DNA from: Dehalococcoidia bacterium
Lineage (GTDB): Bacteria; Chloroflexota; Dehalococcoidia; Lucifugimonadales; JAGWBF01
NCBI GenBank assembly: GCA_021296025.1
Contig: JAGWBF010000003.1
Coordinates: 1 to 54,749 of the forward strand
Direction: 5' to 3'
Length of the DNA: 54,749 nucleotides
The notes beneath the pieces were generated by a model. The model was not told the DNA's origin. It did no database searches and saw nothing but the letters and a program-made list of their open reading frames with translations. A program made the position numbers and the translations under genes. This document shows positions 250-36,459 of this stretch, one piece after another; the stretch's first letter is position 1, and the number at the start of each line of letters is the position of its first letter.

Positions 250-324
250 TGGCTCCCCGGGCAGGATTCGAACCTGCGACCTAGCGGTTAACAGCCGCCC
301 GCTCTACCGCTGAGCTACCGGGGA
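250..324 (-). tRNA. tRNA-Asn (anticodon GUU), CCA encoded
   Basis: The minus-strand 75 nt folds as a cloverleaf. Acceptor UCCCCGG/CCGGGGA; D-arm GCUC-AGCGGUA-GAGC; anticodon arm GGCGG-CUGUUAA-CCGCU; T-arm GCAGG-UUCGAAU-CCUGC; discriminator G plus CCA. Confidence 0.9.
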
Positions 325-1584: not shown

Positions 1585-2760
1585 CTATGTAACGTAGCGG
1601 AGGGCCGACTCGGTCAGCACCTGGGCTGCAATGGGCAGCGAATCCTCATCTATGTCGAAGTGCTGGCTGTGGTGGGAAGCTGTGATTCCCCGGGCCTCGT
1701 TTCCGCAGCCGACAAGGAAGTAGCAGCCAGGGGCTTCCCTGAGAAAGTAGGTGGCATCATCTCCCACCTGGGGCGGCGAGATAGTAACCACGTTCTCCTC
1801 GCCGACAATGGGGGCGGCGACATCGGCCACCAGCCGGGCCACCCGGGGGTCGTTGATGACGGCGGGGGCGCCCTGGACATGCTCGAAACGGGCTTCGCCT
1901 CTCAGCCCGCGGGCGACGTTCACAGAGATCTCCTCTGCCCGCTTCAGGATGTGCGCCCTGACCGAATCGTCCAGGGTCCGCACGGTGCCGGTAAGCTGGA
2001 CCTCGTCGGACACCACGTTGAAAGCGGTGCCGCCGTGTATGGTGCCGAAGCCTAAGACAGCGGCCTGGGAGGGCTGCACCTCGCGGCTCAGCACAGACTG
2101 CAGGGCGGTTACCACATGGCAGCTAATCAGGATGGGATCGACGGCAAGGTGGGGCATTCCCCCATGTCCTCCCTTGCCCTCCACGGATATCTTGATCTCA
2201 TCGGCGCTGGAGAAAATGGGTCCCGCCTGCGATGTTACCTTCCCCACGGGGAGACCGCTCCACAAATGGAAGCTGAGGACGTTGTCCACCGGCGGGTCCT
2301 TCATGACTCCCGCCTCGATCATGGGCAAGGCTCCGCTCATGATCTCTTCGGCAGGCTGGAAGACTAGCTTTACGTTGCCCTTGATGGACTCTTGGCGGGA
2401 GCTGAGCAGTTCGGCAACCACCATCCCAACGGCGGTGTGCCCGTCGTGTCCGCAGGCATGCATCACGCCATCCACCTGGGAGGTGTAGTCCCGGTCTCTC
2501 GGTTCCTGGATGGGAAGGGCATCGATGTCCACCCGGAGGAGCACCGTGGGCCCCGGCGAAGCTCCCTTTAGCAGGCCCACCACCCCGGTGTCGGCGACTC
2601 CCCGCGTGACCTCCCATCCCACATCTTCGAGGTAGTTGGCGGCGATGTCTGCGGTCCTGTGCTCCTGAAAGGAAAGCTCCGGGTGCCTGTGAAAGTCCCG
2701 ACGGAGCTCGATCAGTTTGTCCTTGAGGCGGGCTACTTCATATCCAATATCGTCTGCCAC
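1585..2760 (-). CDS. M20 family amidohydrolase (N-acyl-amino-acid / hippurate hydrolase-like)
   Basis: 391 aa. Motifs FHRHPELSFQE, MHACGHDGH and GGHG are characteristic of the M20D peptidase/amidohydrolase family. Confidence 0.85.
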   Translation of the reverse strand: MADDIGYEVARLKDKLIELRRDFHRHPELSFQEHRTADIAANYLEDVGWEVTRGVADTGVVGLLKGASPGPTVLLRVDIDALPIQEPRDRDYTSQVDGVMHACGHDGHTAVGMVVAELLSSRQESIKGNVKLVFQPAEEIMSGALPMIEAGVMKDPPVDNVLSFHLWSGLPVGKVTSQAGPIFSSADEIKISVEGKGGHGGMPHLAVDPILISCHVVTALQSVLSREVQPSQAAVLGFGTIHGGTAFNVVSDEVQLTGTVRTLDDSVRAHILKRAEEISVNVARGLRGEARFEHVQGAPAVINDPRVARLVADVAAPIVGEENVVTISPPQVGDDATYFLREAPGCYFLVGCGNEARGITASHHSQHFDIDEDSLPIAAQVLTESALRYVT

Positions 2761-2863
2761 CCTCGCCTCCGTTCGGCTGCGAATTCGTTTCTGGCGGGTA
2801 TTCTATCACAGCGATAACCCGCCCTTGTGTCGCTAGTTGCCCGATACTATACTAGCTACCTGT

Positions 2864-3529
2864 ATGGAAGAGCAGCATCTAGATGAAGAGCTTGCGGAGC
2901 TCAGCCTCTTTCCCCTGAACGTCGTCCTGTTCCCCGGTATGCCCATGCCCCTGCGCATCTTCGAGGAGCGGTACAAGCTGATGATCAACCAGTGTATCGA
3001 CAACTCGGAGGTGTTCGGCATCATGCTCATCCGCGAGGGCCCGGAGGTTGGCGGTGGCGCGGTCCCCCATGCCATTGGCACCACCTGCCGGATCACCGAG
3101 GTCGAGCGCCTGGAAGATGGCAGGATGAACCTGTCCACCACCGGTGAGAAGCGCTTCCAGCTGGTCGAGCCCCTGTACGATGCGCCCTATCTAAGGGGCA
3201 AGGTGAGGTATCTACCCGAAGGGGTGGGTGAGACCCAGGAAGGTGTACAGGAGGAAGCCCACCACCTATTTACGGAATTCATCCGGGGCCTTGCCGGACT
3301 GCGGGGAGGGTGGATGAGCGGCGCCGATGCCCCAGACGACCCCGGCGTGCTTTCTTACTCCATCGCCCACTACCTCGACCTACCGGTCATTGCCAAGCAG
3401 CGCCTCCTGGAGGTGCCCCAGACGGGTGAGCGTCTCAAGTATGAGATACCCCTGCTCCAGGGAGCGGTCCAGCGCCTCAAGGAAGAGACGGTCAAACGGA
3501 ACCCCTACCAGGGACCTCGCCTGAACTAA
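2864..3529 (+). CDS. LON substrate-binding (Lon N-terminal) domain protein
   Basis: LFPLNVVLFPGMPMPLRIFEERYKLMI is the hallmark start of the LON_substr_bdg domain. I prefer the ATG at 2864 over the TTG at 2837 that immediately follows a stop. Confidence 0.8.
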   Translation: MEEQHLDEELAELSLFPLNVVLFPGMPMPLRIFEERYKLMINQCIDNSEVFGIMLIREGPEVGGGAVPHAIGTTCRITEVERLEDGRMNLSTTGEKRFQLVEPLYDAPYLRGKVRYLPEGVGETQEGVQEEAHHLFTEFIRGLAGLRGGWMSGADAPDDPGVLSYSIAHYLDLPVIAKQRLLEVPQTGERLKYEIPLLQGAVQRLKEETVKRNPYQGPRLN

Positions 3530-3599
3530 CTGCCCCTTCAGGGATGCCACCACCTCTTCCCGCCCCTCAACTCCGCCCGAACTTTGGATTGAATGGAAG

Positions 3600-4517
3600 C
3601 TAGTACCCCTCGTAGCGAACCATAGCCTCGGCCGCCGGCTCCCCATCGAAAAGATCGGGATGGAGCGCCCGCGCTAGAATGTCCACGCCGTCAACCAACC
3701 GAGGACCTGAGCGGGTGAAGTAGGCGTTTGAGTTTCCCACAAAGACCTGTCCGCATTGCGTGGCCGACAAGGAACTCCAGCCTGGCAGCTCCGTCAGCAG
3801 GGACATCTCGTCCATCCCCCTGTCAACGTCGAAACCACAAGGCGCGACGAGCAGAACATCGGGGTCCTGGGCCACTACCTCATCCCAGTCGGTCCTGCGG
3901 GAGGGACGCCCAGCCCTTCCCAGGCAATCGACTCCGCCGGCTGCTTCTATCATCTCCGGCACCCAGTGACCGGCGTATATCAGCGGCTGAAGCCACTCCA
4001 GGCAGGCCACCCGTTTCAATTTGGCCTGCCCGGTCTTACTCCTTACCTCATCGATCCGACTTTTCATCCCGTCCACCAGTTCTACTGCCGCATCTTCACA
4101 CCCGGCCGCAGCGCCGACGCGCATGACATCATCGAATACATCCTGGAGACATGTAGGGTCCAGGGTGATGATGGTTGGATCTCTCTTCAGATATCTACAG
4201 GCCTCGGCAACCTGCCGGGCGGTGACCGCTCACTCTTCGCAAAGGGCTTGGGTCAGTATGATGTCCGGCTCCGCTTCCCTGAGCACATCCTTGTCTATCT
4301 CATATATGCCCTTGCCCTGGACCAAGCGTTCCCGGATCCACCGGTCTATCTCCCCGCTGCCGGCCGTCCCGTTGTCCAGGGTGCTATAGACCACCTTGGG
4401 GACATCCAGGGCCGCCGCCGGATAGTCGCATTCGTGGCTCACTCCATAGAGACTATCTCCCAGACCGAGGGCGTACACCATCTCGGTGGCCCCGGGAACG
4501 AAGGAACAGATTCGCAT
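3600..4517 (-). CDS. Cytoplasmic periplasmic-binding-protein-fold (BtuF/cobalamin-siderophore type) protein with an in-frame TGA at 4230-4232; candidate selenoprotein (C-E-E-U) or pseudogene
   Basis: ORFs 4230..4532 and 3600..4124 are in the same frame and separated only by one TGA. My read-through translation is ...DIILTQALCEE-[TGA]-AVTARQVAEACRYLKRDPTIITLDPTCLQDVFDDVMRVGAAAG... From memory, family members carry L-C-x-V-C-A-V at this point, so the TGA sits on the second Cys. There is no signal peptide. Start taken at ATG 4517 (MRICSFVPGATEM). Confidence 0.6.
4201..4220 (-). promoter_or_regulatory. SECIS-like hairpin 9 nt downstream of the in-frame UGA
   Basis: Minus-strand RNA GCCCGGCA-GGU-UGCCGAGGC forms an 8-bp stem with one bulged A. 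The apical loop contains GGU, or AGGUU if the closing A-U pair opens. Confidence 0.4.
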
Positions 4518-4679
4518 GAGCACATCCCCCAAGCACAGTTGTCGTGTCCAGGAGCATTATGCCAAGAAGGTCAACTAACGTACAGAACAGACCTTCGAGC
4601 TGCGTTGTGCCAGGAATACTCCCATGATATATTGACGCCACCGACGCCGAGACACGAGCCAGGCACAAAAGGGAACGAC

Positions 4680-5891
4680 ATGGTGCAAGCTCAGGATATA
4701 AGGAACATGAAGCTGGTCTCCCACCATGATCTTGGCGGGTACGGCAACGTCGGCGAGGGAATCGCCATCCACCAGTACCCCGGCGGGCAGCGCCTCCTCT
4801 TCCTGGCCCACGAAAGCTCCCCCAAGGATGTTACGGTGGTGGACGTCACCGACGTCGCCAACCCCAGGGTGGTGAACCAGACGGAGTTGCCCCACCGGGA
4901 GATGCGCTCCAACTCCCTGGCGGCCGTGGGCGACATCCTGTACGTCGCCTACCAGGTGGCCAGGCCGGGAATGAAGCCCGCAGGCATGGGCATTTACGAC
5001 ATCAGCAAACCTGGCGAGCTCCGGCAGATCAGCTTCTTCGACACTTCCGGGCCCGGCTCCAGGGGTGTGCATTGCTTGTGGTGCGTGGACGGGCGCTACG
5101 CCTACTTGAGCACCGGCAGCAGCGACCTCAATCCCCGAAATCCCAAGGACGACCAGTTCTACATGTGCGTGGATGTGAGCGACCCCGCCCAGCCTCAGGA
5201 GGTCGGGCGATGGTGGCTGCCGGGAACCATGGACAGCGATGAGGAAGACCCGCCGGAGAGGCATCCCCACTTCGACACCGGCTTTCGCCTTCACAACGCC
5301 AACGTTTACCCACAGAGACCCGACCGGGCCTACCTGGGATACATAGACGCCGGATTCATCACCCTGGACATATCGGACATGGCCAAGCCAAAAGTGGTCA
5401 ACCATGTGGACTACCACCCACCCCTCATCGGCTTCACCCACACGGTGGTCCCCCTGTTCCAAAGGGAGCTGCTGGTGGTCAGCGAGGAAGCTATTACCCA
5501 GGATGGGTGTGCCGACTGGCCCAAGCTCGTGTGGATCGTTGATGTCAGCGTCGAGTCGAACCCTGTGATGCTCAGCACCTTGCCGATGCACAAGGAAACC
5601 TACGAGAACCTGCCGGGCCGCTACGGCGCCCACAACATTCACGAGAACCAGCCCGTGCCGACATCCCACATCGACGAGAACATCGTTTATGGCACCTACT
5701 TCAACGGAGGAATCCGTGTGCACGACATCTCCGACCCCTTCAGACCCGAAGAGGTGGCCTACTTTGTGCCGCCCGTGCCTGAGGGTGCCCCAGCCAACGG
5801 GGTCAACGATGTGTACGTGGACGAAAATCAGCTGATCTATACGGTGGACCGCATCGCGGGCGGGCTGTACATCTTGGAGCCCGACTTCTAG
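4680..5891 (+). CDS. LVIVD-repeat beta-propeller protein
   Basis: Only the C-terminal 403 aa of the 711-aa track ORF look real. The upstream part is antisense to the binding-protein gene. Repeated hydrophobic-D-(I/V)-(S/T)-D/xxP units: VTVVDVTDVANP, MGIYDISKPG, FITLDISDMAKP, VWIVDVSVESNP, IRVHDISDPFRP. Confidence 0.7.
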   Translation: MVQAQDIRNMKLVSHHDLGGYGNVGEGIAIHQYPGGQRLLFLAHESSPKDVTVVDVTDVANPRVVNQTELPHREMRSNSLAAVGDILYVAYQVARPGMKPAGMGIYDISKPGELRQISFFDTSGPGSRGVHCLWCVDGRYAYLSTGSSDLNPRNPKDDQFYMCVDVSDPAQPQEVGRWWLPGTMDSDEEDPPERHPHFDTGFRLHNANVYPQRPDRAYLGYIDAGFITLDISDMAKPKVVNHVDYHPPLIGFTHTVVPLFQRELLVVSEEAITQDGCADWPKLVWIVDVSVESNPVMLSTLPMHKETYENLPGRYGAHNIHENQPVPTSHIDENIVYGTYFNGGIRVHDISDPFRPEEVAYFVPPVPEGAPANGVNDVYVDENQLIYTVDRIAGGLYILEPDF

Positions 5892-23765: not shown

Positions 23766-24650
23766 CTAGGCGGGGACCGCCTTTGACACAAGGTCGCCGG
23801 TGGAAATGATGTGCTTCTGCAAACCCAGTTCATCGGGGTCCAAGCCCATGGCCAGCCCCATCAGCTGGGGAAGATGCAGTATGGGCAGGTTGGTCTTCCG
23901 CTGGGATTGGGCCATTGCCTTGGGCTGGTAGCCGTCCAGGTTCAGGTGACACAGGGGACAGGGCGTTACCATCGCATCGGCCCCCATGTCTGCAGCCTCG
24001 GAGGTGTGCTTTCCGACCATGGCCACAGAGTTGGCTTCGTTGATGGTCAGTATGGGAAAGCCGCAGCAACGGCTTTTGCCCGAAAAGTTCACGACCTCTC
24101 CGCCAATGGCCTCGATGAGCTCTTCCAGGGATGTCTCCCTTCCGGGGTAGTCCTTGAATCCAAGGGCGTTGCTGGGGCGTAGTATGTAGCACCCGTAAAA
24201 GGGCGCGACCTTGAGGTGAGTCAGAGGATTCCTGACGTGGGTCTTGAGGGTCTCAACCCCGATGTCCTCTATGATTATCCAGAGAAGGTGCTTCACCACC
24301 GTCGTTCCCTTGTACTCCAGGTACTCCTCGGCCAGTTCGGCGTTGACCCTGGCGAGATACTCGGGGTCGTCGGTGAGTCTCTTGTTGGCTTGGGACATCA
24401 CTCCCTGGCATGTGCTGCAGATGGTCATGATGGGCAGGCCCATCCACTCCGCCATGGCAAAGGTGCGGGCGTTCAGCACATCGCCGAGGAACTGGTTCTT
24501 CTCCTGGAGCACACCGGCCCCCGTGCAGGATGCGCCTACCATCTCTTCCAGCTCGATTCCCAGGCGACGGCAGACCTGCATCGCAGCAGGGTACAGCTCG
24601 GGGCAGCCACCCCGGGATACGCAGCCTGGGAAAAACGCATACTTTGACAT
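23766..24650 (-). CDS. CCG-domain (HdrB-like) subunit of non-classical succinate dehydrogenase/fumarate reductase
   Basis: 294 aa with YAFFPGCVSRG, ASCTGAG and a CCG motif (KSRCCGFP). It lies immediately downstream of sdhA-sdhB. Confidence 0.75.
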   Translation of the reverse strand: MSKYAFFPGCVSRGGCPELYPAAMQVCRRLGIELEEMVGASCTGAGVLQEKNQFLGDVLNARTFAMAEWMGLPIMTICSTCQGVMSQANKRLTDDPEYLARVNAELAEEYLEYKGTTVVKHLLWIIIEDIGVETLKTHVRNPLTHLKVAPFYGCYILRPSNALGFKDYPGRETSLEELIEAIGGEVVNFSGKSRCCGFPILTINEANSVAMVGKHTSEAADMGADAMVTPCPLCHLNLDGYQPKAMAQSQRKTNLPILHLPQLMGLAMGLDPDELGLQKHIISTGDLVSKAVPA

Positions 24651-24689
24651 TTACCTTCTACCTCAAGTAACTCAGGTTTGGGGACAGGT

Positions 24690-25643
24690 CTATTTCTTTG
24701 GTTCCAGCTTTCGGAAAATCCGCCGGACGTTCTCCACGTTGGGCAGCATCTTGTGGAATATGGGGGGCATCTTGCCCCGCACCAGCGCGCGCAGTCCGAC
24801 GGGTGCGAAGCTTTGCATGGCCCGAATGTTGAACATGCCTACCGTCTTCACGGGAAGCTTCAGCTCATCCAGCCGGCCGCTATGGGAAACCAGCTCGACG
24901 AAAGCATCGGTGTGCCGTGCTCCAATCTCCTTATCGAACCCGGCATTCATCGCCAAGTCCCGCATCACCATGATGCGGTCCATGGGGGCCACCCCTTTGG
25001 GGCAGACCTGGACGCACTCCATACAGCGGGTGCAGTCCCAAATGCCCGAGTACTGGCGCAAGCTGTCCAGCCTGGGCTTCTCCTGGGAGTCCCGGGGATC
25101 AGCGACGAAGCGGTAGGCCTTGGCGAGGGCCGCGGGCCCCAGGAAATTGGAGTCCACCTCCAGCACAGTACAGTCGGATACGCAGGCGCCGCACAGGATG
25201 CAGCCCATGACCCCGGCCAGGTGCAGCATATCCTCGTTTGGAGCAAGGTACTCTCCCTCGGGCTCCGGGCCCTCGGGCTGAAGCCACGGATCGACAGCCT
25301 TGACCTTGTCCCAGAAGGGGGTCATGTCCACCACAAGGTCCTTGATCACTTCCATGTTGCCCATGGGTTCTATCGTGACACTCCCACCGTCGGGCGCGAT
25401 CTCGCTCACCCGGGTCTTACAGGCAAGCTGAGCGTGGCCGTTCACCCTCATCGAACATGAGCCGCAGATTGCGCTTCGGCAAGAGCATCTAAGGGACAAG
25501 GTCCCGTCGATGTCTTCCCTGATGTTGATCAGGGTATCCAGCACGGTGGTGTACTCATCCACCTCGACCTTGTACTCCGACCAGTAGGGAATGGGCTCTT
25601 TGGCTTCGGGGTCGTATCGTCGTACCTTTACGGCCAGATCCAT
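24690..25643 (-). CDS. sdhB: Succinate dehydrogenase/fumarate reductase iron-sulfur subunit, with a C-terminal extension
   Basis: 2Fe-2S CSCRSAICGSCSMRVNG; 4Fe-4S CILCGACVSDC; the third cluster motif CTRCMECVQVCP has four Cys. Start set at ATG 25643 (MDLAVKV), which forms an ATGA overlap with the sdhA stop. Confidence 0.85.
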   Translation of the reverse strand: MDLAVKVRRYDPEAKEPIPYWSEYKVEVDEYTTVLDTLINIREDIDGTLSLRCSCRSAICGSCSMRVNGHAQLACKTRVSEIAPDGGSVTIEPMGNMEVIKDLVVDMTPFWDKVKAVDPWLQPEGPEPEGEYLAPNEDMLHLAGVMGCILCGACVSDCTVLEVDSNFLGPAALAKAYRFVADPRDSQEKPRLDSLRQYSGIWDCTRCMECVQVCPKGVAPMDRIMVMRDLAMNAGFDKEIGARHTDAFVELVSHSGRLDELKLPVKTVGMFNIRAMQSFAPVGLRALVRGKMPPIFHKMLPNVENVRRIFRKLEPKK

Positions 25644-27322
25644 CAGTACTTCCTTTCCTCGGGCGTCCACTGGGTGATTACCACCGGACTGTAGGAGATC
25701 TTCGGACCCTCGGGGGTTGATGTCACAAGGATGTGCTTGAGCCAATCGGCGTCATTCCGCTCCGGGAAGTCCGTCCGTGAGTGCGCCCCCCTGCTTTCCT
25801 TGCGTTCCAGGGCGCTGACAGCTATGGCCTCAGCACAGTCCAGCATCAAGCCCAGCTCCAGGTCGAACACCATGTCTGTGTTGAACGTGCGTCCCTTGTC
25901 TTCTACCGGCACCGTTGTGTACCGCTCTTTGAGCTGTTGGATGGTGTCCAGGGCCTCTTTCATGCCGTTCTGATCCCGGTACACACCCAAGTGGGCATTC
26001 ATGGCAGTCCCCATATCCAGGCGGATCCTAGCGACGCGGTCCCCGTTGGCATCCCTGGAGAGTATTTCAGCCAAGCGTTTCTCTTCCTGCCCAACCAGTT
26101 CTTCGACATCCAGGGGTTCCTGCGTCGTTCCCTTGGATACCTCAGCGGCATGGTTACCGGCACGGTGTCCGAAGACGACGGTGTCCAGCAGCGAGTTTGC
26201 TCCCAAGCGGTTGCCCCCGTGAACGCTGACGCAGGCGCACTCGCCTGCTGCATATATACCGGGGACACTTGTGAGACCATCCACGTCGGTCTTTATTCCG
26301 CCCATCTGGTAGTGCATTCCCGGCTGCACAGGGATGGGTTCTTGAGTTATGTCAATGCCCAATAGGTCGAGGCCAATGTCATATATCTGAGAAAGCTTTT
26401 CCTTTATGAGCTGTTCTCCCAAGTGCCGGCAGTCCAGCAGTACGGACCCATTTATGCCGTTGCCTTCGGCTATTTCGATTGTCTCGGAGCGGGACACAAC
26501 ATCCCTGGAAGCCAGCTCCATCATGCTGGGGGCGTATCTCTCCATAAACCGCTCGCCGTCCTTGTTGAGCAGGTAAGCTCCTTCGCCTCGCGCTCCTTCT
26601 GTGATCAGCACTCCGCTGCCTTTCAGCGTGGTCGGGTGGTACTGGACCATCTCCATGTCCATGAGGGGGACCCCAGCCCGGTACGCGAGGGCTATGCCAT
26701 CGCCAGTCACGATCAGTGCATTGGTGCTGGGTTCGAACACGCGTCCCAGCCCTCCTGTACACAGGATTACGGTCTTGGCCTTGATCAGGTACACCCGGCC
26801 CGTGCGGATTTCCATGGCCAGGACGCCGCAGCACTTACCTTCCTGCATAACCAGGGATGTCACGAACCACTCTTCGTAGCTGGTGATTTCCGACTTGAGG
26901 AGCTGCTCGTATAGGACGTGGAGGATCGCCTGCCCGGTGAAGTCGGCCACGAAGAAGGTTCGCGCCCGCCTTTGGCCCCCGAAGGCCCTGGTGCCCAGGC
27001 GTCCCTCATCATCCCTATTGAATATCACGCCCATGTGCTCCAGGGATATGAGTTCCTCCCCCGCCACCTGGCACATAAGCTCGATGGAGTCCTGGTCCCC
27101 CAGGTAATCGCTGCCCTTGACGGTGTCATAGGCGTGCTCTTCCCAAGCATCGCCGCGGTCAACCAGCGCCGCGTTTATTCCACCCTGGGCGGCGTTGGAG
27201 TGGCTGCGCACGGGATACACCTTGCTGATGATCCCCGTATTGGCTCCCATCTCTGTGGCAGCCAGGGCCGCCCTCATTCCTGCCAGGCCGGCGCCCACTA
27301 CCAGCACATCATGCTCAAGCAT
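25643..27322 (-). CDS. sdhA: Succinate dehydrogenase/fumarate reductase flavoprotein subunit
   Basis: 559 aa with [13 protein letters not shown], the covalent-FAD His context [11 protein letters not shown] and the capping-domain motifs. Confidence 0.92.
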
Positions 27323-27402
27323 ACGCTATCGGTCCTACCTTACTGCTTTGTTGATAGACCACCCTGGCAGCCCCCACTGTCAACACTCCGTACCGCCGCG
27401 GG

Positions 27403-27951
27403 TCAGCCAGCATCTCGCAGATGCATCGCCATCATCAGTCCGGCGATGCTCTTAGCATCCTTGATGATACCCTTCTTGATCAGTCCTGGCACCTGCGCCA
27501 GCGACACGTGTTCGACCCTGATATCTTCATCCTCATCAGCCGGAAGGGAGCTGGGAAAGAGTCCCCGTGCCTCATAGGCGTGCATGAGTTCGGTGCTAAA
27601 TCCCGGGCTGATCCAGAAGCTGGACAACAGCTCCAGGTGGGTTGCGGAGTACCCCGTCTCCTCCTGGAGCTCCCTCAGGACCGTCTCCTGCGACAGCTCC
27701 CCTTCTTCCACGTTTCCGGCCGGTATCTCCAGCAAGACCTGCTCCACCGCTTTGCGGTACTGGCGCACCATTACTATGTTGCTTTCGTCTTCATAGGGAA
27801 CGATGCATACGCAGGGGCGATGTTCGACGATCTCGCGGATACTCTGACCGCCACGGCCAAGGCTGACATCATCCACTCGTACGTTGAATATCCTTCCTTG
27901 GAAGGCCAAGCGGCTGCTTAAGGTGAGTTCAGGCTGGAGGTCGGACGTCAT
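27403..27951 (-). CDS. NUDIX hydrolase (ADP-ribose pyrophosphatase-like)
   Basis: Nudix box GNVEEGELSQETVLRELQEETGY. Confidence 0.85.
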   Translation of the reverse strand: MTSDLQPELTLSSRLAFQGRIFNVRVDDVSLGRGGQSIREIVEHRPCVCIVPYEDESNIVMVRQYRKAVEQVLLEIPAGNVEEGELSQETVLRELQEETGYSATHLELLSSFWISPGFSTELMHAYEARGLFPSSLPADEDEDIRVEHVSLAQVPGLIKKGIIKDAKSIAGLMMAMHLRDAG

Positions 27952-27956
27952 TGTAC

Positions 27957-28850
27957 CTAGTACTGGATAGCCCTGGTGGTACTTGCACCATCGCCGAAAC
28001 CCAGCCGTTGGGTGAGGGTTTCGAAGAAGTGAACAGGAGGATTGGACCGGAGAAACAGGGCTGAACAGGGGCTTGCTTGTACCTCAACCGCTGCCCCTGC
28101 CGGCAGGTCGGCATCCACATAGCCATCCACGCTCAGGGTGGCGCTGTGGTCGGTTCGGACAACCAAATCGACCGTCGATGTGGCTGGAAGCACCATGGCA
28201 GATGCCATCCCCACGTGGGGCGCTATGGGCTTCAGTATCATCTCATCAGCCAATGGCCACAGGATCGGCCCACCCACCGAAAGGTTGTATCCTGTGCTTC
28301 CCGTTGCTGTGGAAACGATCACTGCATCGGCCCGAAACTCGGTTATGAAAGCGCTGTTTATGTAGGTAGCTATAGAAACCAGTCGGGACACCGCTCCTCG
28401 TCCGACGACCACATCGTTCAAGGCGTTACACTCTTGTTTACCTGCCATGGACAGATAGTTGCTGCCGCCCCTTCCATCGGACATGGTACGAACTTGGAGC
28501 ATGCATCTTTCTTCCACTCGCATGTCCCCTTCCAGGAACAGGGGGACCCTGTCAAAGGCTTCGTGGGCTTCGATCTCGGTCATGAAGCCCAGCCTTCCCA
28601 TGTTTATTCCCAGAATGGGGATGCGGTTCGGAACGGACACCCTGGCGGCGCGAATTATGGTGCCATCTCCGCCAATGGTGATAATCAGGTCTGTTTCTTC
28701 GGCGCCGGGCAAGCTTTCCTCAACCTCGGTTGCAGCACACTGCCAGGACCTGCCGCCAAGATCCAGCCGCTCGACCAGGGCATTTGCCATTTCTTGGGCT
28801 TCGACTATGCGGTCGTTGTAGATGAAACCGATGGTCTGAAGAGACGCCAT
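27957..28850 (-). CDS. nadK: NAD+ kinase
   Basis: 297 aa with IITIGGDGTIIRAAR and the STATGSTGYNLSVGGPI motif. Confidence 0.9.
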   Translation of the reverse strand: MASLQTIGFIYNDRIVEAQEMANALVERLDLGGRSWQCAATEVEESLPGAEETDLIITIGGDGTIIRAARVSVPNRIPILGINMGRLGFMTEIEAHEAFDRVPLFLEGDMRVEERCMLQVRTMSDGRGGSNYLSMAGKQECNALNDVVVGRGAVSRLVSIATYINSAFITEFRADAVIVSTATGSTGYNLSVGGPILWPLADEMILKPIAPHVGMASAMVLPATSTVDLVVRTDHSATLSVDGYVDADLPAGAAVEVQASPCSALFLRSNPPVHFFETLTQRLGFGDGASTTRAIQY

Positions 28851-28976
28851 TTACCGCTTCCGGGGGAACGCCATCCCCAGGGTGGTGCCAGCTATCTGAC
28901 TACGGAAGTCTAGCATCGGCCCTCGTAGCTGTCAACAAAGGTGGACAGGCTGCGGCGCCCTCTCTGGTGGGGCACA

Positions 28977-30500
28977 TCAACCAATGGGGAGAAGCCCCAC
29001 GTACTCCACCACCGTGGCGCCCAAGGTCCCCGCCGACAGCTCCACCAGCCTGAGCAGCGGCCCAGGAAGGAAGCCGAAGACCAGTACTCCCAACGCCGAC
29101 ACCCCCAGGGCCAACTTAAATGACGCAGATGTGGGCACGGCCCCCTCGGATGTAGGCGGTTCCAGGTACATCGTACGCACAACCCTCAGATAGTAGTAAG
29201 CCGACACGACGGTATTGGCGACACCTACAACCACCAGCCAAAGCAGGCCGCTCTCCAGGGCGGAGCCGAAGATATACAGCTTGGCGATGAATATGCCAGT
29301 GGGGGGCACCCCGATCAGGGCAACCAGGGACAACGCCAGAGCAAAGGCAAGCAGAGGCGCCCTGCGGCTGATCCCTGCGAAGTCCGATATCTGGTCGCTC
29401 CCGACCTTGTTGGCGATAGCCATGACCGCGAAGAAGGCAGCCAGGTTGGTGGCAGCATAGGCACCCAGGTAGTACAGGACGCTGCTGGGGCCGGAGGTAT
29501 CGCCATCGGCAGTAGTGGGAGCGATGGCCGCCAAGCCCACCAGCAGGTATCCGGCGTGGGCTATGGTGCTGTAGGCCAGCAGCCTCTTGACGCTGGTCTG
29601 GGCGATAGCCACCAGGTTGCCTATCGTCATCGAGGCGGCCGCCATGACAGCCAGAAGTATCTGCCAGTCAAGCTGGAAGACCTCGAACCCCCCGTACAAC
29701 ACCCTGAGCAGCACCGCAAACCCGGCAGCCTTGCTAGCCACGGACAGATAGGCCGTGACGGGGGTTGGCGCTCCCTCGTACACATCCGGCACCCACATAT
29801 GAAAGGGGGCCGCCGATATCTTGAAGCCGAAGCCCGCGATGATAAGCACCACTCCTAGCAGTAAGGCCGAGCTGCCTCCGAAAATCTCCCCCGCCTCTGT
29901 CAGGAAAGCAGCCTGCCGGGCAATGTCACTCAGGAAAGTGCTCCCGGTGAACCCGTATACGAGGGCAATGCCATACAAGAGCAGGGCAGAACTCACGGCG
30001 CTCAGGACCAGGAACTTCAGGCCCGATTCGCTGGAGCGGGAAGTCTTTAGAAAGGCCGCAAGGGCTATCAATGGCAGTGTGGTCAGCTCCAATGCCACGT
30101 AGATGGCAATAAGCTCTTCGGTGGCCGCCAGAAGCATCATGCCGGTTGCAGAGAACAGCAGCAGGCCGTAGTACTCGCCCCGGTGCTCCCTCACATGCCT
30201 TGCATAGTCGGACGACGCCAAGACCACCAAGGCAGCCACGCCCAGCACGAGGAACTTGAAGAACAGGGCGAACCTGTCCACGACCAGGGTGCCGAATATG
30301 CCAACCAGTCTATGGTCGGGCTGATCGGCAACATCCATCCAAAGCCAGATGCTCAGACCCAGGGGGACTAGAAGTCCAATGGCGGCGAGCAGTCCGAGAA
30401 GGCCCTTCTGCTTCACCACGAGGTCCAGCAAGATAACCAGCAGGGCCAAGCCCACAAGGGCTATCTCCGGGGAGAGAAGGCGGACATCTTCAGGGGTCAT
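28977..30500 (-). CDS. nuoN: NADH-quinone oxidoreductase subunit N
   Basis: 507-aa polytopic antiporter-like protein (FHMWVPDVYEGAPTPVTAY). It is the last gene of the nuo cluster and overlaps the nuoM stop. Confidence 0.9.
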   Translation of the reverse strand: MTPEDVRLLSPEIALVGLALLVILLDLVVKQKGLLGLLAAIGLLVPLGLSIWLWMDVADQPDHRLVGIFGTLVVDRFALFFKFLVLGVAALVVLASSDYARHVREHRGEYYGLLLFSATGMMLLAATEELIAIYVALELTTLPLIALAAFLKTSRSSESGLKFLVLSAVSSALLLYGIALVYGFTGSTFLSDIARQAAFLTEAGEIFGGSSALLLGVVLIIAGFGFKISAAPFHMWVPDVYEGAPTPVTAYLSVASKAAGFAVLLRVLYGGFEVFQLDWQILLAVMAAASMTIGNLVAIAQTSVKRLLAYSTIAHAGYLLVGLAAIAPTTADGDTSGPSSVLYYLGAYAATNLAAFFAVMAIANKVGSDQISDFAGISRRAPLLAFALALSLVALIGVPPTGIFIAKLYIFGSALESGLLWLVVVGVANTVVSAYYYLRVVRTMYLEPPTSEGAVPTSASFKLALGVSALGVLVFGFLPGPLLRLVELSAGTLGATVVEYVGLLPIG

Positions 30501-32059
30501 TTGCCGGCGCTCACCAGGTCACTTACTTGTGACAGATGGGCAATGCCAGCCCCAAAGTAGTCGGTCAGAAGGGAGGGATACACTCCGATCACGACTATGC
30601 TTGCAGTCAACATCACAGCCGGAGCAGCTTCCAGGATGCTGGCATCGGTGATCAGGTCGAAGCGCTCTTTCCTTGGCCCGAATAGCACCCGTTCCAGCAT
30701 CCAAAGGATGTAGCCGGCGGCTATGACTATCCCGAATGCCGCCAGGGCTGTTGGCCACGCAAAGGCCTTGAAACTCCCCAGGAACACCATGACCTCCGCC
30801 ACAAATCCGCTCAGGCCGGGCAACCCGAGGGAGGCCAGCCCCGCGATGAGAAATCCGCAGGCGATGAGGGGCATCCTCCCGGCCAGCCCACCCAGGTCGG
30901 GGATGTACCTTGTGTGCGCCTTCTCATACACCAGCCCGACAAGGAGGAATAGCAGGCCCGTGATGGTGCCGTGAGTAAACATCTGCATGCTGGCTCCGGC
31001 CAGTGCAAGGCCGGCCACGTTCTCCGAGTCGGACCCGAAGAGGGTCCCTCCTCCGACACCTACAGCAACGCCCAACAGCACCAGTCCCATGTGGCTCACG
31101 CTGCTGTATGCTATCAACCGCTTCAGGTCCGTCTGGCGCAGGGTCACGATTGCTCCGTAGAGGACGCCGACCACGGCCAGCACCGCCAGCACCCATGCGT
31201 AGGTCTGGGCATGCTCCAGTTCGGGGAACATGCCCACGCAAACCCTGATCAGCCCATAACCGCCCATCTTCAACAGCACTCCGGCCAGCATGATGCTGAC
31301 CGCCGTCGGTGCGTCGGTGTGGGCGTCGGGCAGCCAGGTATGCACAGGCCACACCGGAAGCTTGATTGCGAAGGCAGCCACGAAGAACCAGAAGATAAGG
31401 CCGACGGGGACCACAGATGAGCTGCTTATTCCCATCAGAGACAGCTGGGTCATGTCGAAGGTGGCCAAATTCGAGGTCAGGGCTACCGCAATTATCCCCA
31501 CTAACATGAAAGCCCCGCCGAGGATAGTGAAGACCAGGAACTTCATCGCCGAGTACTCTTTGCGCCCGGTGCCCCAGATGGAGATAAGCATGTACATGGG
31601 CACCAGCTCCAGCTCCCAGAAGAGGAAGAACAGCAGAAAGTCCTGGGCTGCGAACACACCCATGACCGCCGTCTGCAGGACAAGCAGCCAAACGAAGTAC
31701 TCCTTGACCCTGGTCTGGATGCTCCATGATGCCAGCACAGCGGCCAAGCCCAATAGCCCGGTCAGCAGCACCAGCGGAGCGCTTAGGCCATCTACAGCCA
31801 GATGATAGCTGGCTGTAAAGGACGCGCTGCCAATTATCGCACCTTCACCGAACCAGTTGAACCTGTCGATGATCTGGAACCGCTCGGCCCCTCCCCGGTC
31901 GTAGAGGGAGAGCACCAGCCCCGACAGGACGAGGTCAGCCAGGAGCACCAAGGTGGCAAACAGGTGTACTTTCCCACCACTCCGCAACAGGGCAGCTATC
32001 ACAATCGCTCCTGCCAGGGGCAGGAAGACGGTCGCGGTCAAAAGGCCGTTAAATTCCAA
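30497..32059 (-). CDS. nuoM: NADH-quinone oxidoreductase subunit M
   Basis: 520 aa with FFLFWELELVPMY and HTWLPDAHTDAPTAVSIMLAGVLLKMGGYG. Confidence 0.9.
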   Translation of the reverse strand: MEFNGLLTATVFLPLAGAIVIAALLRSGGKVHLFATLVLLADLVLSGLVLSLYDRGGAERFQIIDRFNWFGEGAIIGSASFTASYHLAVDGLSAPLVLLTGLLGLAAVLASWSIQTRVKEYFVWLLVLQTAVMGVFAAQDFLLFFLFWELELVPMYMLISIWGTGRKEYSAMKFLVFTILGGAFMLVGIIAVALTSNLATFDMTQLSLMGISSSSVVPVGLIFWFFVAAFAIKLPVWPVHTWLPDAHTDAPTAVSIMLAGVLLKMGGYGLIRVCVGMFPELEHAQTYAWVLAVLAVVGVLYGAIVTLRQTDLKRLIAYSSVSHMGLVLLGVAVGVGGGTLFGSDSENVAGLALAGASMQMFTHGTITGLLFLLVGLVYEKAHTRYIPDLGGLAGRMPLIACGFLIAGLASLGLPGLSGFVAEVMVFLGSFKAFAWPTALAAFGIVIAAGYILWMLERVLFGPRKERFDLITDASILEAAPAVMLTASIVVIGVYPSLLTDYFGAGIAHLSQVSDLVSAGK

Positions 32060-32085
32060 CTAGTACCGCCCAGTCCCCATTTTGC

Positions 32086-34053
32086 TCAGGTCCACATGAA
32101 GGCAAAGAATACCCCTCCTATAACTATTGCTCCCAAGGTGACGATCAGCACGTACCCCTGGGCCTGCCCGGTCTGGAGCAGGGCCACAACCCTTCCAAAG
32201 TTCATGGATGACCAACCGATGGTCTCCGCAAAGTTGTCTATAATCTTCCGGTCCATCCAGTCCAAGCTTCCACCGCCGACGCCGTAGAACCCTCGCCTCG
32301 TAACCCCTCCTTCGAGCAGCTCGTCCATGTAGTACTTCCGGGAAAGGAGGTGGTGTGCCAGTCTGAAGGGGGCGCCCAGTGGCCCCGGCAGAAGGTTCGG
32401 GACTAGGAACAAGAACACCGCAGTCCCTATGCCCAGGACCGCAACGGCCAGGGACAGCCCTGCCAGGGAAAGGATGATGTCGGACTTGCCTCCCAGGAAG
32501 TCCGCAAACCAGTGGGCCGGAATTCCCAGGATGTCCACGACAGGGTTCACGAGGCCGCCCGCAACTACCGACGCCACAGCCAGCAAACCCATGGGCAACA
32601 CCATAACCCAGGGGGACTCGGCCAGATGCACCTTGTGCTCTCCTTGGTGGGAGGGAATGCCGGCGTCCTGTTCCTCAGCTTCGACACCTCCCCTGAACTC
32701 CCCGTGGAAGGTCATGAACACCATCCTGAAGATGTAGAAGGCGGTCATGGGGACAGCGGCGAACAGGAGCCAGAACACCACCGTGTCCACAGTTGAACCG
32801 CCACCCCAGGCATGGGCCAGAATCTCATCCTTGCTCCAGAAGCCCGACAGGGGGAAGATCCCGGCCAAGCTCAGCGAGCCAATAAGCACAAGCATGTAAG
32901 TCCATGGCATGTATTTACGAAGGCCGCCCATGTAACGCATGTCAAAGGTGCCGCTGGCATGGTTCACACTGCCAGCGCCCATGAAGAGCAACGCCTTGAA
33001 AAAGGCATGGGTGAACAGGTGGAAGATGGCAGGGACGTAGGCGCCGACTCCCAAGGCCGCCACCATGTAACCAAGCTGGCTGATCGTGGAGTAGGCCAGC
33101 ACCCGCTTGATGTCGTTCATCACCAGTCCCATGGTGGCCGCGAAGATAGCGGTGATCGCCCCAACCAAGGCGATGATCTGCATCGCATGCACCGAGGCCT
33201 CGACGACGGGAAAGAAACGGGCGATCAGGAACACCCCAGCAGCTACCATCGTGGCCGCGTGGATCAGGGAGCTGACAGGGGTGGGACCTTCCATGGCATC
33301 GGGCAACCATATATGCAGGGGGAACTGGGCTGACTTCCCCATCGCCCCGGCAAATATCCCCATCACCATGAGAGTGAGAGCCGTTCCTCCCAGGAGACCT
33401 AGCTGCACTCCTGCAGATATGTCGGCAATCTCCAGGGCGTTGAGCCCGTTTTCAGCAAATGCAGCCGTGTTGAAGAACAGGTATAGAATGGCGATCAGGA
33501 AGCCCAAGTCCCCAATTCGGGTAACTACGAAAGCCTTCTTTGCAGCAGCAGCAGCAGCCGGCCTCGTGAACCAGAAACCGATGAGAAGGTACGAGCACAC
33601 CCCGACTAGCTCCCAGAACACGTACAGCTGTACCACGTTGCTGGCAATCACAAGCCCGATCATGGAAGCAGTGAACAGGGACATTAGGGCGTAATACCGG
33701 GCGAAACCCGGATCGCCTCTCATATAGCCGAGGGAGTACACCTGGACCATCAGGCTCACCCCGGTCACAACCACCAGCATTATGGATGTGAGCGGGTCCA
33801 GGATAATGCCCAGGTTTATCTGCAACGCGCCCAGGCTCAGCCACTCGTGGGGAGCGAACAGCACCTCGCCGTTGTCGATGACGGAGCCAAGGGCCACCAG
33901 CGACAGGGCGAATGAGGCGCCTATAGTCGTGATGGTCGTAAGGGCAGCCAGGCCGGAGAACCGGTTGAGAAATGGCCGGATCACCAGGGCAATGGCTACA
34001 AAGGAACCCAGCGGCAAAAGGAATATAGCCCAAACGGCTGCCTCTTGGATCAT
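32086..34053 (-). CDS. nuoL: NADH-quinone oxidoreductase subunit L
   Basis: 655 aa with YVFWELVGVCSYLLIGFW, LHIWLPDAMEGPTPVSSLIHAATMV and the C-terminal lateral-helix region. Confidence 0.9.
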   Translation of the reverse strand: MIQEAAVWAIFLLPLGSFVAIALVIRPFLNRFSGLAALTTITTIGASFALSLVALGSVIDNGEVLFAPHEWLSLGALQINLGIILDPLTSIMLVVVTGVSLMVQVYSLGYMRGDPGFARYYALMSLFTASMIGLVIASNVVQLYVFWELVGVCSYLLIGFWFTRPAAAAAAKKAFVVTRIGDLGFLIAILYLFFNTAAFAENGLNALEIADISAGVQLGLLGGTALTLMVMGIFAGAMGKSAQFPLHIWLPDAMEGPTPVSSLIHAATMVAAGVFLIARFFPVVEASVHAMQIIALVGAITAIFAATMGLVMNDIKRVLAYSTISQLGYMVAALGVGAYVPAIFHLFTHAFFKALLFMGAGSVNHASGTFDMRYMGGLRKYMPWTYMLVLIGSLSLAGIFPLSGFWSKDEILAHAWGGGSTVDTVVFWLLFAAVPMTAFYIFRMVFMTFHGEFRGGVEAEEQDAGIPSHQGEHKVHLAESPWVMVLPMGLLAVASVVAGGLVNPVVDILGIPAHWFADFLGGKSDIILSLAGLSLAVAVLGIGTAVFLFLVPNLLPGPLGAPFRLAHHLLSRKYYMDELLEGGVTRRGFYGVGGGSLDWMDRKIIDNFAETIGWSSMNFGRVVALLQTGQAQGYVLIVTLGAIVIGGVFFAFMWT

Positions 34054-34054
34054 C

Positions 34055-34249: not shown

Positions 34250-34277
34250 ACTGCCTTCCCACTACTCGCGTAGTCGC

Positions 34278-34607: not shown

Positions 34608-34609
34608 CG

Positions 34610-35653: not shown

Positions 35654-35772
35654 CGGTTTTCTTGCATCCTCTCGGTTCTAATTTGAGATGATGGAATGCC
35701 TACCCTGGATTTCATCTCGACTAATGTAGCCATTCCTTCCCTGCTATGGGCATTCGGTCTCACTGCCGGACC

Positions 35773-36363: not shown

Positions 36364-36459
36364 GCTATGCCCCATCTCCCTGCCCGGCAGCGGGCAAGGT
36401 CGTTCTCGAAGGCCAGGCCCCGGTTCCAAATGTGCTTTGCGGTGGGCGTACCTTGTCTC

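What the first reader, a model, noticed from the sequence alone, without database searches (positions are those of the whole stretch)
3600..4517. Signal-less BtuF-like binding-fold protein with C-E-E-[UGA]: a fourth candidate selenoprotein, or a nonsense pseudogene
Two track ORFs (4230..4532 and 3600..4124) are one gene interrupted by a single in-frame TGA. The joined product is a full-length (~305 aa) type-III periplasmic-binding-protein fold without a signal peptide.

The UGA lies in ...ILTQALCEE-U-AVTARQV... From memory, cytoplasmic members of this family carry a conserved L-C-x-V-C-A-V here. That would make a CxxU redox pair, and a SECIS-like hairpin follows.

A Sec form of this family would suggest a redox or metal (possibly corrinoid or selenium/thiol) handling role rather than transport. 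No ABC permease or ATPase gene is adjacent.
Basis: partly seen in the sequence, partly recalled or inferred. Interest (0 to 1): 0.65.

Follow-up and report, generated by a model that had tools for sequence, protein, structure and literature searches.

The report
Selenocysteine-containing cytoplasmic BtuF-like binding protein
The apparent stop codon inside this gene almost certainly encodes selenocysteine, so the gene is intact and not broken, but this selenoprotein family is already listed in recent catalogues and only its biochemical function remains unknown.

Summary
Window 4517..3600 (minus strand) is one 305-codon gene of the Peripla_BP_2 (class III binding-protein) fold. It has no signal peptide and a single in-frame TGA at 4232..4230.

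The TGA aligns with the second Cys of an invariant CxxC (136 of 136 diverse homologues). The same TGA is present in 30 distinct orthologues from Dehalococcoidia/Chloroflexota, some only about 50% identical to the window protein. Both halves of the gene are under purifying selection. A hairpin that fits the bacterial SECIS model follows the TGA. Its stem codons show no synonymous variation, and Cys-form homologues lack it.

TGA is also an ordinary stop in 17 of 45 window genes. The window carries two further classical selenoprotein genes: one ferredoxin-thioredoxin-reductase-like with two TGA, and one glutaredoxin-like.

I conclude it is a genuine selenoprotein and not a pseudogene. [quoted passage not shown]

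The function is uncharacterised. Four invariant Cys (one replaced here by Sec) probably line the inter-lobe cleft. B12-linked gene contexts in three other lineages point to cytoplasmic corrinoid handling. That step is inference.

The parts
3600..4517 (-). Complete gene: 305 codons plus TAG stop, encoding a cytoplasmic Peripla_BP_2 (BtuF-like) protein with Sec at codon 96
   Evidence: All close orthologues are also 305 codons with one TGA.
4515..4517 (-). Start codon ATG. A GGGGGA ribosome-binding-like motif lies at 4530..4525, 7 nt upstream
   Evidence: Sequence. Homologues start MRICS.
4233..4517 (-). Codons 1-95: most of the N-lobe, including the invariant H28-E29-C30-D31 (C30 at 4430..4428)
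   Evidence: dN/dS 0.03-0.09 among close orthologues. C30 is conserved in 96% of 136 representatives.
4230..4241 (-). C93-E-E-U96 motif (CxxU). Cys93 is TGC at 4241..4239
   Evidence: C93 and C96 are invariant in 136/136 Cys-form representatives. The C93 codon is TGC in 30/30 Sec forms.
4230..4232 (-). In-frame UGA, read as selenocysteine (codon 96)
   Evidence: At this alignment column: TGA in 30 genes, TGC in 14, TGT in 4.
4201..4220 (-). SECIS-type hairpin. Lower stem GCC/GGC with a bulged A (4204), upper stem CGGCA/UGCCG, apical loop GGU (4212..4210), 17 nt after the UGA. It encodes A-R-Q-V-A-E
   Evidence: Folds (core MFE -12.6 kcal/mol). The stem codons CGG, CAG and GAG show zero synonymous variation in 30 genes, while the loop position of the Val codon varies freely. 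Cys forms lack the hairpin. It fits the bSECIS constraints quoted.
3603..4229 (-). Codons 97-305: the rest of the N-lobe, the connecting helix and the C-lobe, with invariant E174, W175, W185, C227 (3839..3837) and R273
   Evidence: dN/dS 0.13-0.26 downstream of the TGA. Conservation. Model of a Cys homologue.
3600..3602 (-). True stop codon TAG

Best explanation
**What it is.** This is an intact gene for a cytoplasmic selenoprotein with the class III periplasmic-binding-protein fold (Peripla_BP_2, BtuF-like).

**How the UGA is read (inferred from sequence evidence).** UGA at codon 96 is recoded to selenocysteine. The signal is a SECIS hairpin 17 nt downstream, inside the coding sequence: a 4-bp invariant stem CGGC/GCCG (extended to 6-8 bp, differently in each subclade), with apical loop A-GGU-N. 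SelB carrying Sec-tRNA(Sec) presumably binds it.

**Where Sec sits.** Sec replaces the second Cys of an invariant CxxC. That motif lies in the loop after a beta-strand of the N-lobe. Together with the invariant C30 and C227 it forms a Cys3Sec centre. By the general architecture of this fold, these residues line the inter-lobe ligand cleft.

**Origin.** The Sec form arose once within Dehalococcoidia/Chloroflexota and has been retained in two deep subclades: CEEU (the window's type) and CEVU.

**Function (inferred, not shown).** The protein is not a transporter component. It most likely binds a tetrapyrrole-type ligand, most likely a corrinoid, in the cytoplasm. It would use the thiolate/selenolate centre to coordinate or chemically process that ligand, with Sec as the more reactive nucleophile or soft ligand.
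For: **Sec decoding**
- There is a single TGA and no other lesion in the window gene or in L001-L004.
- The TGA aligns with Cys in all Cys forms.
- TGA is kept in 30 distinct genes from GTDB species representatives, down to 48-52% amino-acid identity.
- dN/dS is 0.03-0.09 upstream and 0.13-0.26 downstream, with dS 0.5-0.9.
- Of 124 conserved degenerate codon columns, only 4 have zero synonymous variation. Three of them (CGG, CAG, GAG) plus GCC (29/30) form the hairpin stem. The Val third position in the loop varies A/C/G/T.
- Hairpin core MFE is -8.9 to -14.9 kcal/mol in Sec forms and -2.2 to -7.5 in Cys forms.
- The hairpin meets all four bSECIS constraints quoted from PMC13188914.
- Sec forms are monophyletic in an NJ tree.
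- TGA is an ordinary stop in 17/45 window genes, so there is no genome-wide reassignment.
- The window also has a FeThRed_B-like gene with two TGA at Cys positions and a glutaredoxin gene with TGA in UxxC.
- Dehalococcoidia MAGs with 46-49 selenoproteins are reported in PMC13326102.
- The family is listed as a CxxU selenoprotein in PMC9312934 and PMC13188914.

**Fold and function**
- PF01497 hit.
- The AF2 model of the 53%-identical Cys homologue P0003 has pLDDT 92.7.
- The best Foldseek matches are heme and B12 binding proteins: RhuT, BtuF, ShuT (TM 0.7-0.8).
- C30, C93, C96 and C227 are invariant or nearly so.
- L040: a cobalamin riboswitch heads the same-strand gene run that contains the homologue.
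- L044: the homologue sits among a riboswitch, a BtuF-like protein, BluB and a BtuC-like permease.
- L055: a TonB-dependent receptor and CobD lie directly upstream on the same strand.
- One homologue (P0185) is fused to a DCC1-like thiol-disulfide oxidoreductase.
Against: - No selA, selB, selD or tRNA-Sec gene is in the window or in the fetched flanks. The source genome could not be searched.
- There is no protein-level evidence.
- The upper stem is invariant, so it offers no compensatory changes. The proposed lower stem is not conserved between subclades: 65% of cells are paired and covariation is no better than in shifted controls.
- No Rfam family matches the hairpin.
- On function: no riboswitch or B12 gene lies near any Sec form or in the window. 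B12 contexts occur in only 3 of about 50 Cys-form loci. Most neighbourhoods are lineage-specific and uninformative.
Confidence: 0.9

Rival explanations
1. Nonsense pseudogene. A Cys codon (TGC or TGT) mutated to TGA and the gene is decaying.
For: A single-base change TGC/TGT to TGA would be enough. Gene callers and GenBank annotate only the truncated C-terminal fragment, as 'ABC transporter substrate-binding protein'.
Against: - The same TGA is present in 30 distinct orthologues down to about 50% identity.
- No gene has a second stop or a frameshift.
- Purifying selection is strong downstream of the TGA, with dN/dS 0.13-0.26.
- A conserved hairpin occurs only in the TGA forms.
Confidence: 0.01
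2. UGA is not read as Sec. Either it terminates, giving a 95-residue N-terminal piece, with a separately initiated C-terminal piece that assembles with it. Or it is read through with a standard amino acid (Trp or Cys) by a near-cognate tRNA.
For: - The Sec machinery was not seen.
- Gene callers find start codons for a 197-residue downstream ORF in relatives.
- There is no covariation proof for the hairpin.
Against: - The start used for the downstream fragment in relatives (GTG in ...KVLDKQP) is absent in the window (..RYLKRDP). The first in-frame start in the window is at codon 132, which would delete core strands.
- The split falls exactly on an invariant Cys.
- The hairpin matches the bSECIS model.
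- Other classical selenoprotein genes are in the same window.
- The lineage is reported to be rich in selenoproteins.
Confidence: 0.05
3. Functional rival. The Cys3Sec centre binds a metal ion or an Fe-S cluster, as a metallochaperone, sensor or structural site, and has nothing to do with corrinoids or tetrapyrroles.
For: - Four invariant Cys are a classical metal or cluster signature.
- L039 carries a Cys-rich C-terminal extension and a DUF1289 neighbour.
- Review PMC13188914 notes that predicted transporter-type selenoproteins are mostly linked to heavy-metal handling.
- Most loci have no B12 context.
Against: - The fold is closest to heme and B12 binders, not to the direct metal-ion binders.
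- There are three independent B12-linked contexts.
- Invariant Trp and Arg residues (W175, W185, R273) are more typical of an organic-ligand pocket.
- From general knowledge: Sec usually replaces catalytic Cys, not structural Cys.
Confidence: 0.3
4. Sequencing or assembly error created the TGA.
For: None beyond the general possibility.
Against: The identical codon appears in independent assemblies, including complete long-read chromosomes.
Confidence: 0

Closest known systems
[quoted passage not shown]
   Same: BtuF-like binding-protein domain, CxxU motif, a single Sec, known only from MAGs and metagenomes. The window gene fits every descriptor given.
   Different: - The example accessions could not be retrieved, so identity with them is by description only.
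- The reviews give no SECIS, phylogeny or function.
- The paper the 2026 review cites for it (PMC5029168) does not list the family in its main text or in the supplementary files held here.
- The window belongs to a minor CEEU subclade, about 50% identical to the abundant CEVU subclade.
BtuF, the periplasmic vitamin B12-binding protein of the BtuCDF importer (E. coli 1N2Z/1N4A, V. cholerae 5YSC), and the heme-binding proteins RhuT, ShuT, PhuT and BhuT
   Same: Two-lobe class III fold with a long connecting helix (Foldseek TM 0.7-0.8). N-terminal sequence similarity.
   Different: - No signal peptide and no adjacent permease or ATPase genes.
- NCBIfam BtuF equivalog score is 26.8 against a cut-off of 234.
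- It has an invariant four-Cys centre that, to my knowledge, the periplasmic proteins lack (not checked here).
SaoB and SaoX, ABC-transporter substrate-binding selenoproteins (Haft and Gwadz 2023, as cited in PMC13188914)
   Same: Selenocysteine in a protein of substrate-binding-protein type.
   Different: Different families and motifs (CUxxT, UxP). They are encoded with ABC permease genes, whereas this protein is cytoplasmic and stands alone.
BtuM (Cys-ligated cobalamin, decyanation; PMC6072759) and the eukaryotic CblC/CblD trafficking proteins
   Same: They are a precedent for thiolate coordination and processing of the corrin cobalt, which is the chemistry proposed here for the Cys/Sec centre (own knowledge for CblC/CblD).
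   Different: Unrelated folds. No experimental link to this family. The resemblance is a functional hypothesis only.
Bacterial SECIS elements (E. coli fdhF type; bSECISearch consensus)
   Same: A hairpin inside the coding sequence just 3' of UGA. G at loop position 1-2 followed by G/U. 16-37 nt spacing. MFE at or below -7.5 kcal/mol. All are met.
   Different: Short 4-bp invariant upper stem. In the window clade the bulged A lies on the 3' side. No SelB-binding data.

Membership tests
Bacterial selenoprotein gene | In-frame UGA aligned with Cys in homologues (Sec/Cys pair) | tested here: met
   At the column: TGA 30, TGC 14, TGT 4. C96 is Cys in 136/136 representatives.
Bacterial selenoprotein gene | UGA-containing orthologues in other organisms, with coding constraint continuing past the UGA | tested here: met
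   30 distinct genes. Downstream dN/dS 0.13-0.26.
Bacterial selenoprotein gene | [quoted passage not shown] | tested here: met
   Loop (A)GGU(N), 16-17 nt spacing, MFE -8.9 to -14.9 in all Sec forms. Synonymous sites in the stem are frozen. Absent from Cys forms.
Bacterial selenoprotein gene | Compensatory base changes supporting the hairpin | tested here: inconclusive
   Upper-stem pairs never vary. The lower stem is not conserved between subclades.
Bacterial selenoprotein gene | Sec machinery (selA, selB, selC, selD) in the same genome | not testable with these tools
   Not in the 54.7-kb window or the fetched flanks. Indirect support comes from three further TGA codons at Cys positions in FeThRed_B-like and glutaredoxin genes of the window and from literature on selenoprotein-rich Dehalococcoidia.
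Bacterial selenoprotein gene | Selenium in the protein (75Se labelling or mass spectrometry) | not testable with these tools
   This needs an experiment.
Peripla_BP_2 / class III (BtuF-like) binding-protein fold | Pfam PF01497 match above the gathering score | tested here: met
   79.5 bits against 27.5.
Peripla_BP_2 / class III (BtuF-like) binding-protein fold | Two alpha/beta lobes joined by one long helix | tested here: met
   AF2 model of the 53%-identical Cys homologue P0003: pLDDT 92.7, helix 141-162. Foldseek matches to RhuT, BtuF and ShuT. The window protein itself could not be modelled.
ABC-importer substrate-binding protein (functional class) | Export signal (signal peptide or lipobox) | tested here: not met
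   The protein starts at the first beta-strand. Nearly all family representatives match from residue 1.
ABC-importer substrate-binding protein (functional class) | Encoded next to a FecCD-type permease and an ABC ATPase | tested here: not met
   None within about 5 kb in the window or in L001-L004. No transporter gene was among the neighbour families found recurrently next to the homologues.
BtuF proper (NCBIfam NF002894 equivalog) | Score above the curated cut-off | tested here: not met
   26.8 bits against 234, and only residues 2-42 match.
Catalogued 'Cobalamin binding protein BtuF' CxxU selenoprotein family | BtuF-like domain with a CxxU motif and one Sec | tested here: met
   CEEU at codons 93-96, one TGA. 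Descriptors. CDD cd01144 itself was not run.
Catalogued 'Cobalamin binding protein BtuF' CxxU selenoprotein family | Sequence identity with the published example accessions (RUA21600.1, MDE0719563.1) | not testable with these tools
   Accessions cannot be fetched.

The most novel reading that the evidence does not exclude
The widespread cytoplasmic CxxC/CxxU family with the BtuF fold (at least 2,700 clusters at 50% identity, in Chloroflexota, Thaumarchaeota, Actinomycetota, haloarchaea and other groups) could be an uncharacterised corrinoid-processing enzyme or chaperone. In this reading a Cys3(Cys/Sec) centre in the cleft coordinates the cobalt or attacks its upper ligand (decyanation or dealkylation). 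That would make it a prokaryotic functional counterpart of CblC or BtuM. The Sec forms in Dehalococcoidia would be the catalytically enhanced version.
Probability: 0.2. Interest if true: 0.7.

Novelty: already known. Interest (0 to 1): 0.3.

Why it matters
For annotation, the gene is whole. In public records, including GenBank, its relatives are mostly called as truncated 'ABC transporter substrate-binding protein' fragments, and these should be joined with a Sec at the TGA.

For biology, the Sec/Cys pair marks residue 96 as the reactive residue of a very large, uncharacterised cytoplasmic family with a transporter-type fold. Together with the four invariant Cys and the scattered B12-linked contexts, this gives a concrete, testable entry point: corrinoid or metal binding, and thiol/selenol chemistry.

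The existence of the selenoprotein family is not itself a discovery. It is already in the catalogues.

Tried and rejected
- **Rfam.** A scan of the whole window at gathering thresholds and of 4100..4300 at E up to 10 gave nothing relevant.
- **Covariation.** RNAalifold and pair counts on 28 SECIS regions show an invariant upper stem and no real support for a shared lower stem.
- **tRNA-Sec.** Searched in the window and in 29 loci. None was found, and these are small flanks so none was expected.
- **Sec machinery.** A Pfam map of about 35 window genes found no selA, selB or selD.
- **Modelling the window protein.** Model coordinates are not exposed, so Cys-Cys distances could not be measured.
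- **Source paper.** The paper that the 2026 review cites for the family (PMC5029168) does not mention it in its main text or in the supplementary files held here.
- **Neighbourhood clustering.** Across 80 loci no neighbour is conserved across phyla.
- **Window-wide scans for in-frame TGA.** The first scan, by ORF length, was mostly noise. A codon-usage scan returned only this gene plus four weaker candidates that I judged antisense shadow ORFs (one lies antisense to the DUF255 gene).
- **Genome-wide TGA reassignment.** Rejected, because TGA ends 17 of 45 window genes.
Full report
**1. The observation**

On the minus strand, ORFs 4230..4532 and 3600..4124 are in the same frame. Reading from ATG 4517 to TAG 3602..3600 gives 305 codons with one internal stop. 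That stop is TGA at 4232..4230 (codon 96), in ...DIILTQALCEE*AVTARQVAEAC....

With Cys placed at the TGA, the product matches Pfam PF01497 Peripla_BP_2 (E=3e-22, 79.5 bits against a cut-off of 27.5, residues 8-263). The protein begins directly with the first beta-strand. Its residue 2 aligns with residues 22-24 of the periplasmic homologues' chains, so it has no signal peptide.

The long plus-strand ORF 3756..5891 that overlaps the gene is real only from ATG 4680. From there it is the divergently transcribed LVIVD-repeat gene (403 aa, as in L001).

**2. Is the TGA a lesion or a codon?**

*Homologues and close relatives.* A homologue search returned thousands of proteins of about 304 residues, roughly 50% identical, carrying L-C-[DE]-V-C-A-V at the site. 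The closest relatives (77-90% identical) appeared only as 179- or 197-residue C-terminal fragments. I fetched the DNA for four of these (L001-L004, from contigs of 0.5 to 2.4 Mb). Each holds the same 305-codon gene with one TGA at codon 96 and no other stop or frameshift, in conserved synteny.

*Wider distribution.* A scan of one genome per GTDB species found the same TGA column in 27 species-representative loci (two duplicate L001/L002). All are Dehalococcoidia or Chloroflexota MAGs. Most have the motif AICEV*A[VI]S[ST]RQVAE and are only 48-52% identical to the window protein. Across 48 non-redundant genes the column reads TGA 30, TGC 14, TGT 4.

*Selection.* dN/dS among the window's close relatives is 0.03-0.09 upstream and 0.13-0.26 downstream of the TGA, at dS 0.5-0.9. 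In the other Sec subclade the medians are 0.11 and 0.18. A pseudogene, or a gene that terminated at the TGA, would not keep the downstream 209 codons under such constraint.

*No general reassignment.* TGA ends 17 of 45 mapped window genes, so the genome has not reassigned the codon.

**3. The recoding signal**

*Anatomy.* Nine nucleotides after the UGA lies the hairpin GCC-CGGCA-GGU-UGCCG-A-GGC (4220..4201). The apical loop GGU starts 17 nt after the UGA.

*Frozen synonymous sites.* Across 30 Sec-form genes there are 124 amino-acid columns that are conserved and degenerate. Only four of them show no synonymous variation: Cys93 (TGC), Arg101 (CGG, a six-fold degenerate amino acid), Gln102 (CAG) and Glu105 (GAG). 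Ala104 is GCC in 29 of 30. The third base of Val103, which sits in the loop, is T, A, C or G. Codon choice is therefore frozen exactly where the stem needs it and free where it does not.

*Specific to Sec forms.* The core hairpin folds at -8.9 to -14.9 kcal/mol in every Sec form, against -2.2 to -7.5 in the 18 Cys forms. The two ranges do not overlap.

*Weak points.* The upper stem is invariant, so it provides no compensatory changes. The lower stem differs between subclades and gets no covariation support. Rfam has no matching model.

**4. Does the organism decode Sec?**

The window holds no selA, selB, selD or tRNA-Sec gene. I could not search the rest of the genome.

Indirect evidence is good:
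- At 48623..49039 (+) the window encodes a ferredoxin-thioredoxin-reductase catalytic-subunit-like protein (PF02943). It has TGA at both positions that are Cys in CPC and CHC (48791 and 48887).
- At 49055..49291 (+) it encodes a glutaredoxin (PF00462) with TGA as the first residue of UGPC.
- Glutaredoxin and a two-Sec ferredoxin-thioredoxin reductase are both listed selenoprotein families.
- The BSepDB paper lists Dehalococcoidia MAGs with 46-49 selenoproteins.

**5. Evolution**

In a neighbour-joining tree the Sec forms make one clade with two deep subclades. One is CEEU (the window, L003-L007). The other is CEVU (L009-L036). Cys forms from Chloroflexota, Solirubrobacterales and others lie outside. 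This fits one Cys-to-Sec conversion followed by long retention.

A second database search, seeded with a CEVU-type sequence, showed that 90 of the best 120 clusters are 192-220-residue C-terminal fragments. So the Sec form is abundant in metagenomes and is routinely mis-called. GenBank names such fragments 'ABC transporter substrate-binding protein' (MXZ91408.1, MYD48076.1, MCE2501477.1).

**6. What the protein is**

*Family size.* A profile search of 1.84 billion representatives found 2,744 clusters at E of 1e-30 or better. Nearly all are about 300 residues and match from residue 1.

*Conserved residues.* In 136 diverse representatives Q90, C93, C96 (the Sec site), P178 and C227 are invariant. 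C30 is 96% conserved, W175 and W185 are 99%, and R273 is 96%.

*Structure.* An AlphaFold model of the Cys homologue P0003 is confident (pLDDT 92.7). Its best structural matches are periplasmic heme and B12 binders: RhuT, BtuF, ShuT, PhuT and BhuT, at TM 0.7-0.8. In the model C30, C93/C96 and C227 each sit just after a beta-strand, of the N-lobe, N-lobe and C-lobe respectively. In this fold those loops line the inter-lobe cleft.

*Not BtuF proper.* The protein scores 26.8 bits against the NCBIfam BtuF equivalog cut-off of 234. It lacks an export signal and adjacent transporter genes.

**7. Function**

Neighbourhoods are mostly lineage-specific. A LON-substrate-binding-domain protein is the neighbour in Dehalococcoidia, a Na/H exchanger in the CEVU clade, and Nre in Thaumarchaeota.

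Three Cys-form loci point to cobalamin:
- **L040 (Armatimonadales).** A cobalamin riboswitch (52 bits) heads the same-strand gene run that contains the homologue.
- **L044.** The homologue sits among a cobalamin riboswitch (109 bits), a canonical BtuF-like protein, BluB (above its cut-off) and a BtuC-like permease.
- **L055 (Nitrospiria).** A TonB-dependent receptor and CobD (above its cut-off) lie directly upstream on the same strand.

All three homologues carry the HECDYP, CxVC and PCGF motifs.

Other hints are weaker. L063 has heme oxygenase downstream. Rare fusions join the domain to a DCC1-like thiol-disulfide oxidoreductase, to GGACT or to CoaE.

No riboswitch lies near any Sec form.

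My best reading is a cytoplasmic corrinoid- or tetrapyrrole-handling protein. Its thiolate/selenolate centre would coordinate or process the ligand, with BtuM (PMC6072759) as a chemical precedent. A metal or cluster site is the main functional rival. This part is inference, with modest confidence.

**8. Novelty**

[quoted passage not shown] The paper the 2026 review cites for it (PMC5029168) does not mention the family in its main text or in the supplementary files held here. I could not retrieve the example accessions.

Every descriptor fits, so I rate the finding as already known.

This analysis adds five things:
- the anatomy of the SECIS element and the frozen-codon evidence for it;
- the single origin and the two subclades;
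- the scale of mis-annotation in public records;
- the invariant four-Cys signature;
- the first contextual hints of a B12 link.

**9. Verdict**

This is a genuine selenoprotein gene (confidence about 0.9) and not a pseudogene. It is ordinary in the sense that the family is already catalogued. Its function remains open. Interest 0.3.

Noticed in passing
window 48623..49039 (+): Ferredoxin-thioredoxin-reductase catalytic-subunit-like gene (PF02943, E=3.7e-26) with two in-frame TGA, at 48791..48793 (YRYCPU) and 48887..48889 (GFCIU). Both fall at the second Cys of the CPC and CHC motifs. A two-Sec form of this family is listed in PMC13188914.
   Followed up: partly
window 49055..49291 (+): Glutaredoxin-like gene (PF00462) starting at GTG 49055, with TGA at 49085..49087 in TSVGUGPC (UxxC). 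It lies directly downstream of the FTR-like gene. A hairpin GUGAAAG-UGUAC-CUUUCAC follows 15 nt after the TGA.
   Followed up: partly
window 4239..4241 (-) and the same column in 29 other Sec-form genes: Cys93, three codons before the UGA, is TGC in 30/30 Sec forms. It is one of only four conserved codon columns with no synonymous change, which may be a codon-context effect on recoding.
   Followed up: no
L009-L036 (CEVU subclade), e.g. L028 3001..3921: In the abundant Sec subclade C172 is replaced by His (RVLHLEW) and position 181 becomes Cys (PLMCGGHW). The cleft residues therefore differ between the two Sec subclades. The window clade also uniquely has E instead of the 95%-conserved V95.
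   Followed up: no
L040 859..5296 (+): A cobalamin riboswitch is followed on the same strand by four ORFs: a prepilin-type protein with an H-X9-DG domain, two ORFs with no family match, and the CxxC binding-fold gene among them. This could be an unusual B12-regulated operon in an Armatimonadales MAG.
   Followed up: partly
L044 1797..6388: A B12 cluster surrounds the cytoplasmic CxxC homologue: riboswitch, canonical BtuF-like protein, DUF488, BluB and a BtuC-like permease. The riboswitch lies on the minus strand just 3' of the BtuF-like ORF, with no long ORF downstream of it, which is odd.
   Followed up: no
L039 2992..4140 and 2609..2995: The Gemmatimonadota homologue carries a Cys-rich C-terminal extension (CCPECGG...CWC...CLCPAC). 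A DUF1289 protein is encoded immediately upstream.
   Followed up: no
P0185, P0173, P0220: Rare fusions join the CxxC binding-fold domain to a DCC1-like thiol-disulfide oxidoreductase, a gamma-glutamyl cyclotransferase-like domain or dephospho-CoA kinase. They may be real or may be gene-call merges.
   Followed up: partly
L004 5860..7273: The amidohydrolase that is one gene of 455-481 aa in the window and in L001-L003 is called as two pieces (337 + 111 aa) in L004. This could be a frameshift, a pseudogene or another recoded stop.
   Followed up: no
window 3756..5891 (+) and 3380..3646 (-): The 711-aa plus-strand ORF overlapping the gene is spurious in its first third; the real LVIVD-repeat gene starts at ATG 4680. 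The 88-aa minus-strand ORF 3380..3646 lies antisense to the LON_substr_bdg gene and is probably spurious too.
   Followed up: yes
window 23766..40168 and 45638..48015: Housekeeping context. It includes an HdrB-like CCG protein, sdhB-like and sdhA genes, NAD kinase, a NUDIX protein, and a likely nuo operon at about 28977..40168 (only two subunits were checked against Pfam). GluRS and the queuosine-precursor genes queC, queD-like (PTPS), queE-like (radical SAM) and queF are also present. tRNA-Asn is at 250..324.
   Followed up: partly
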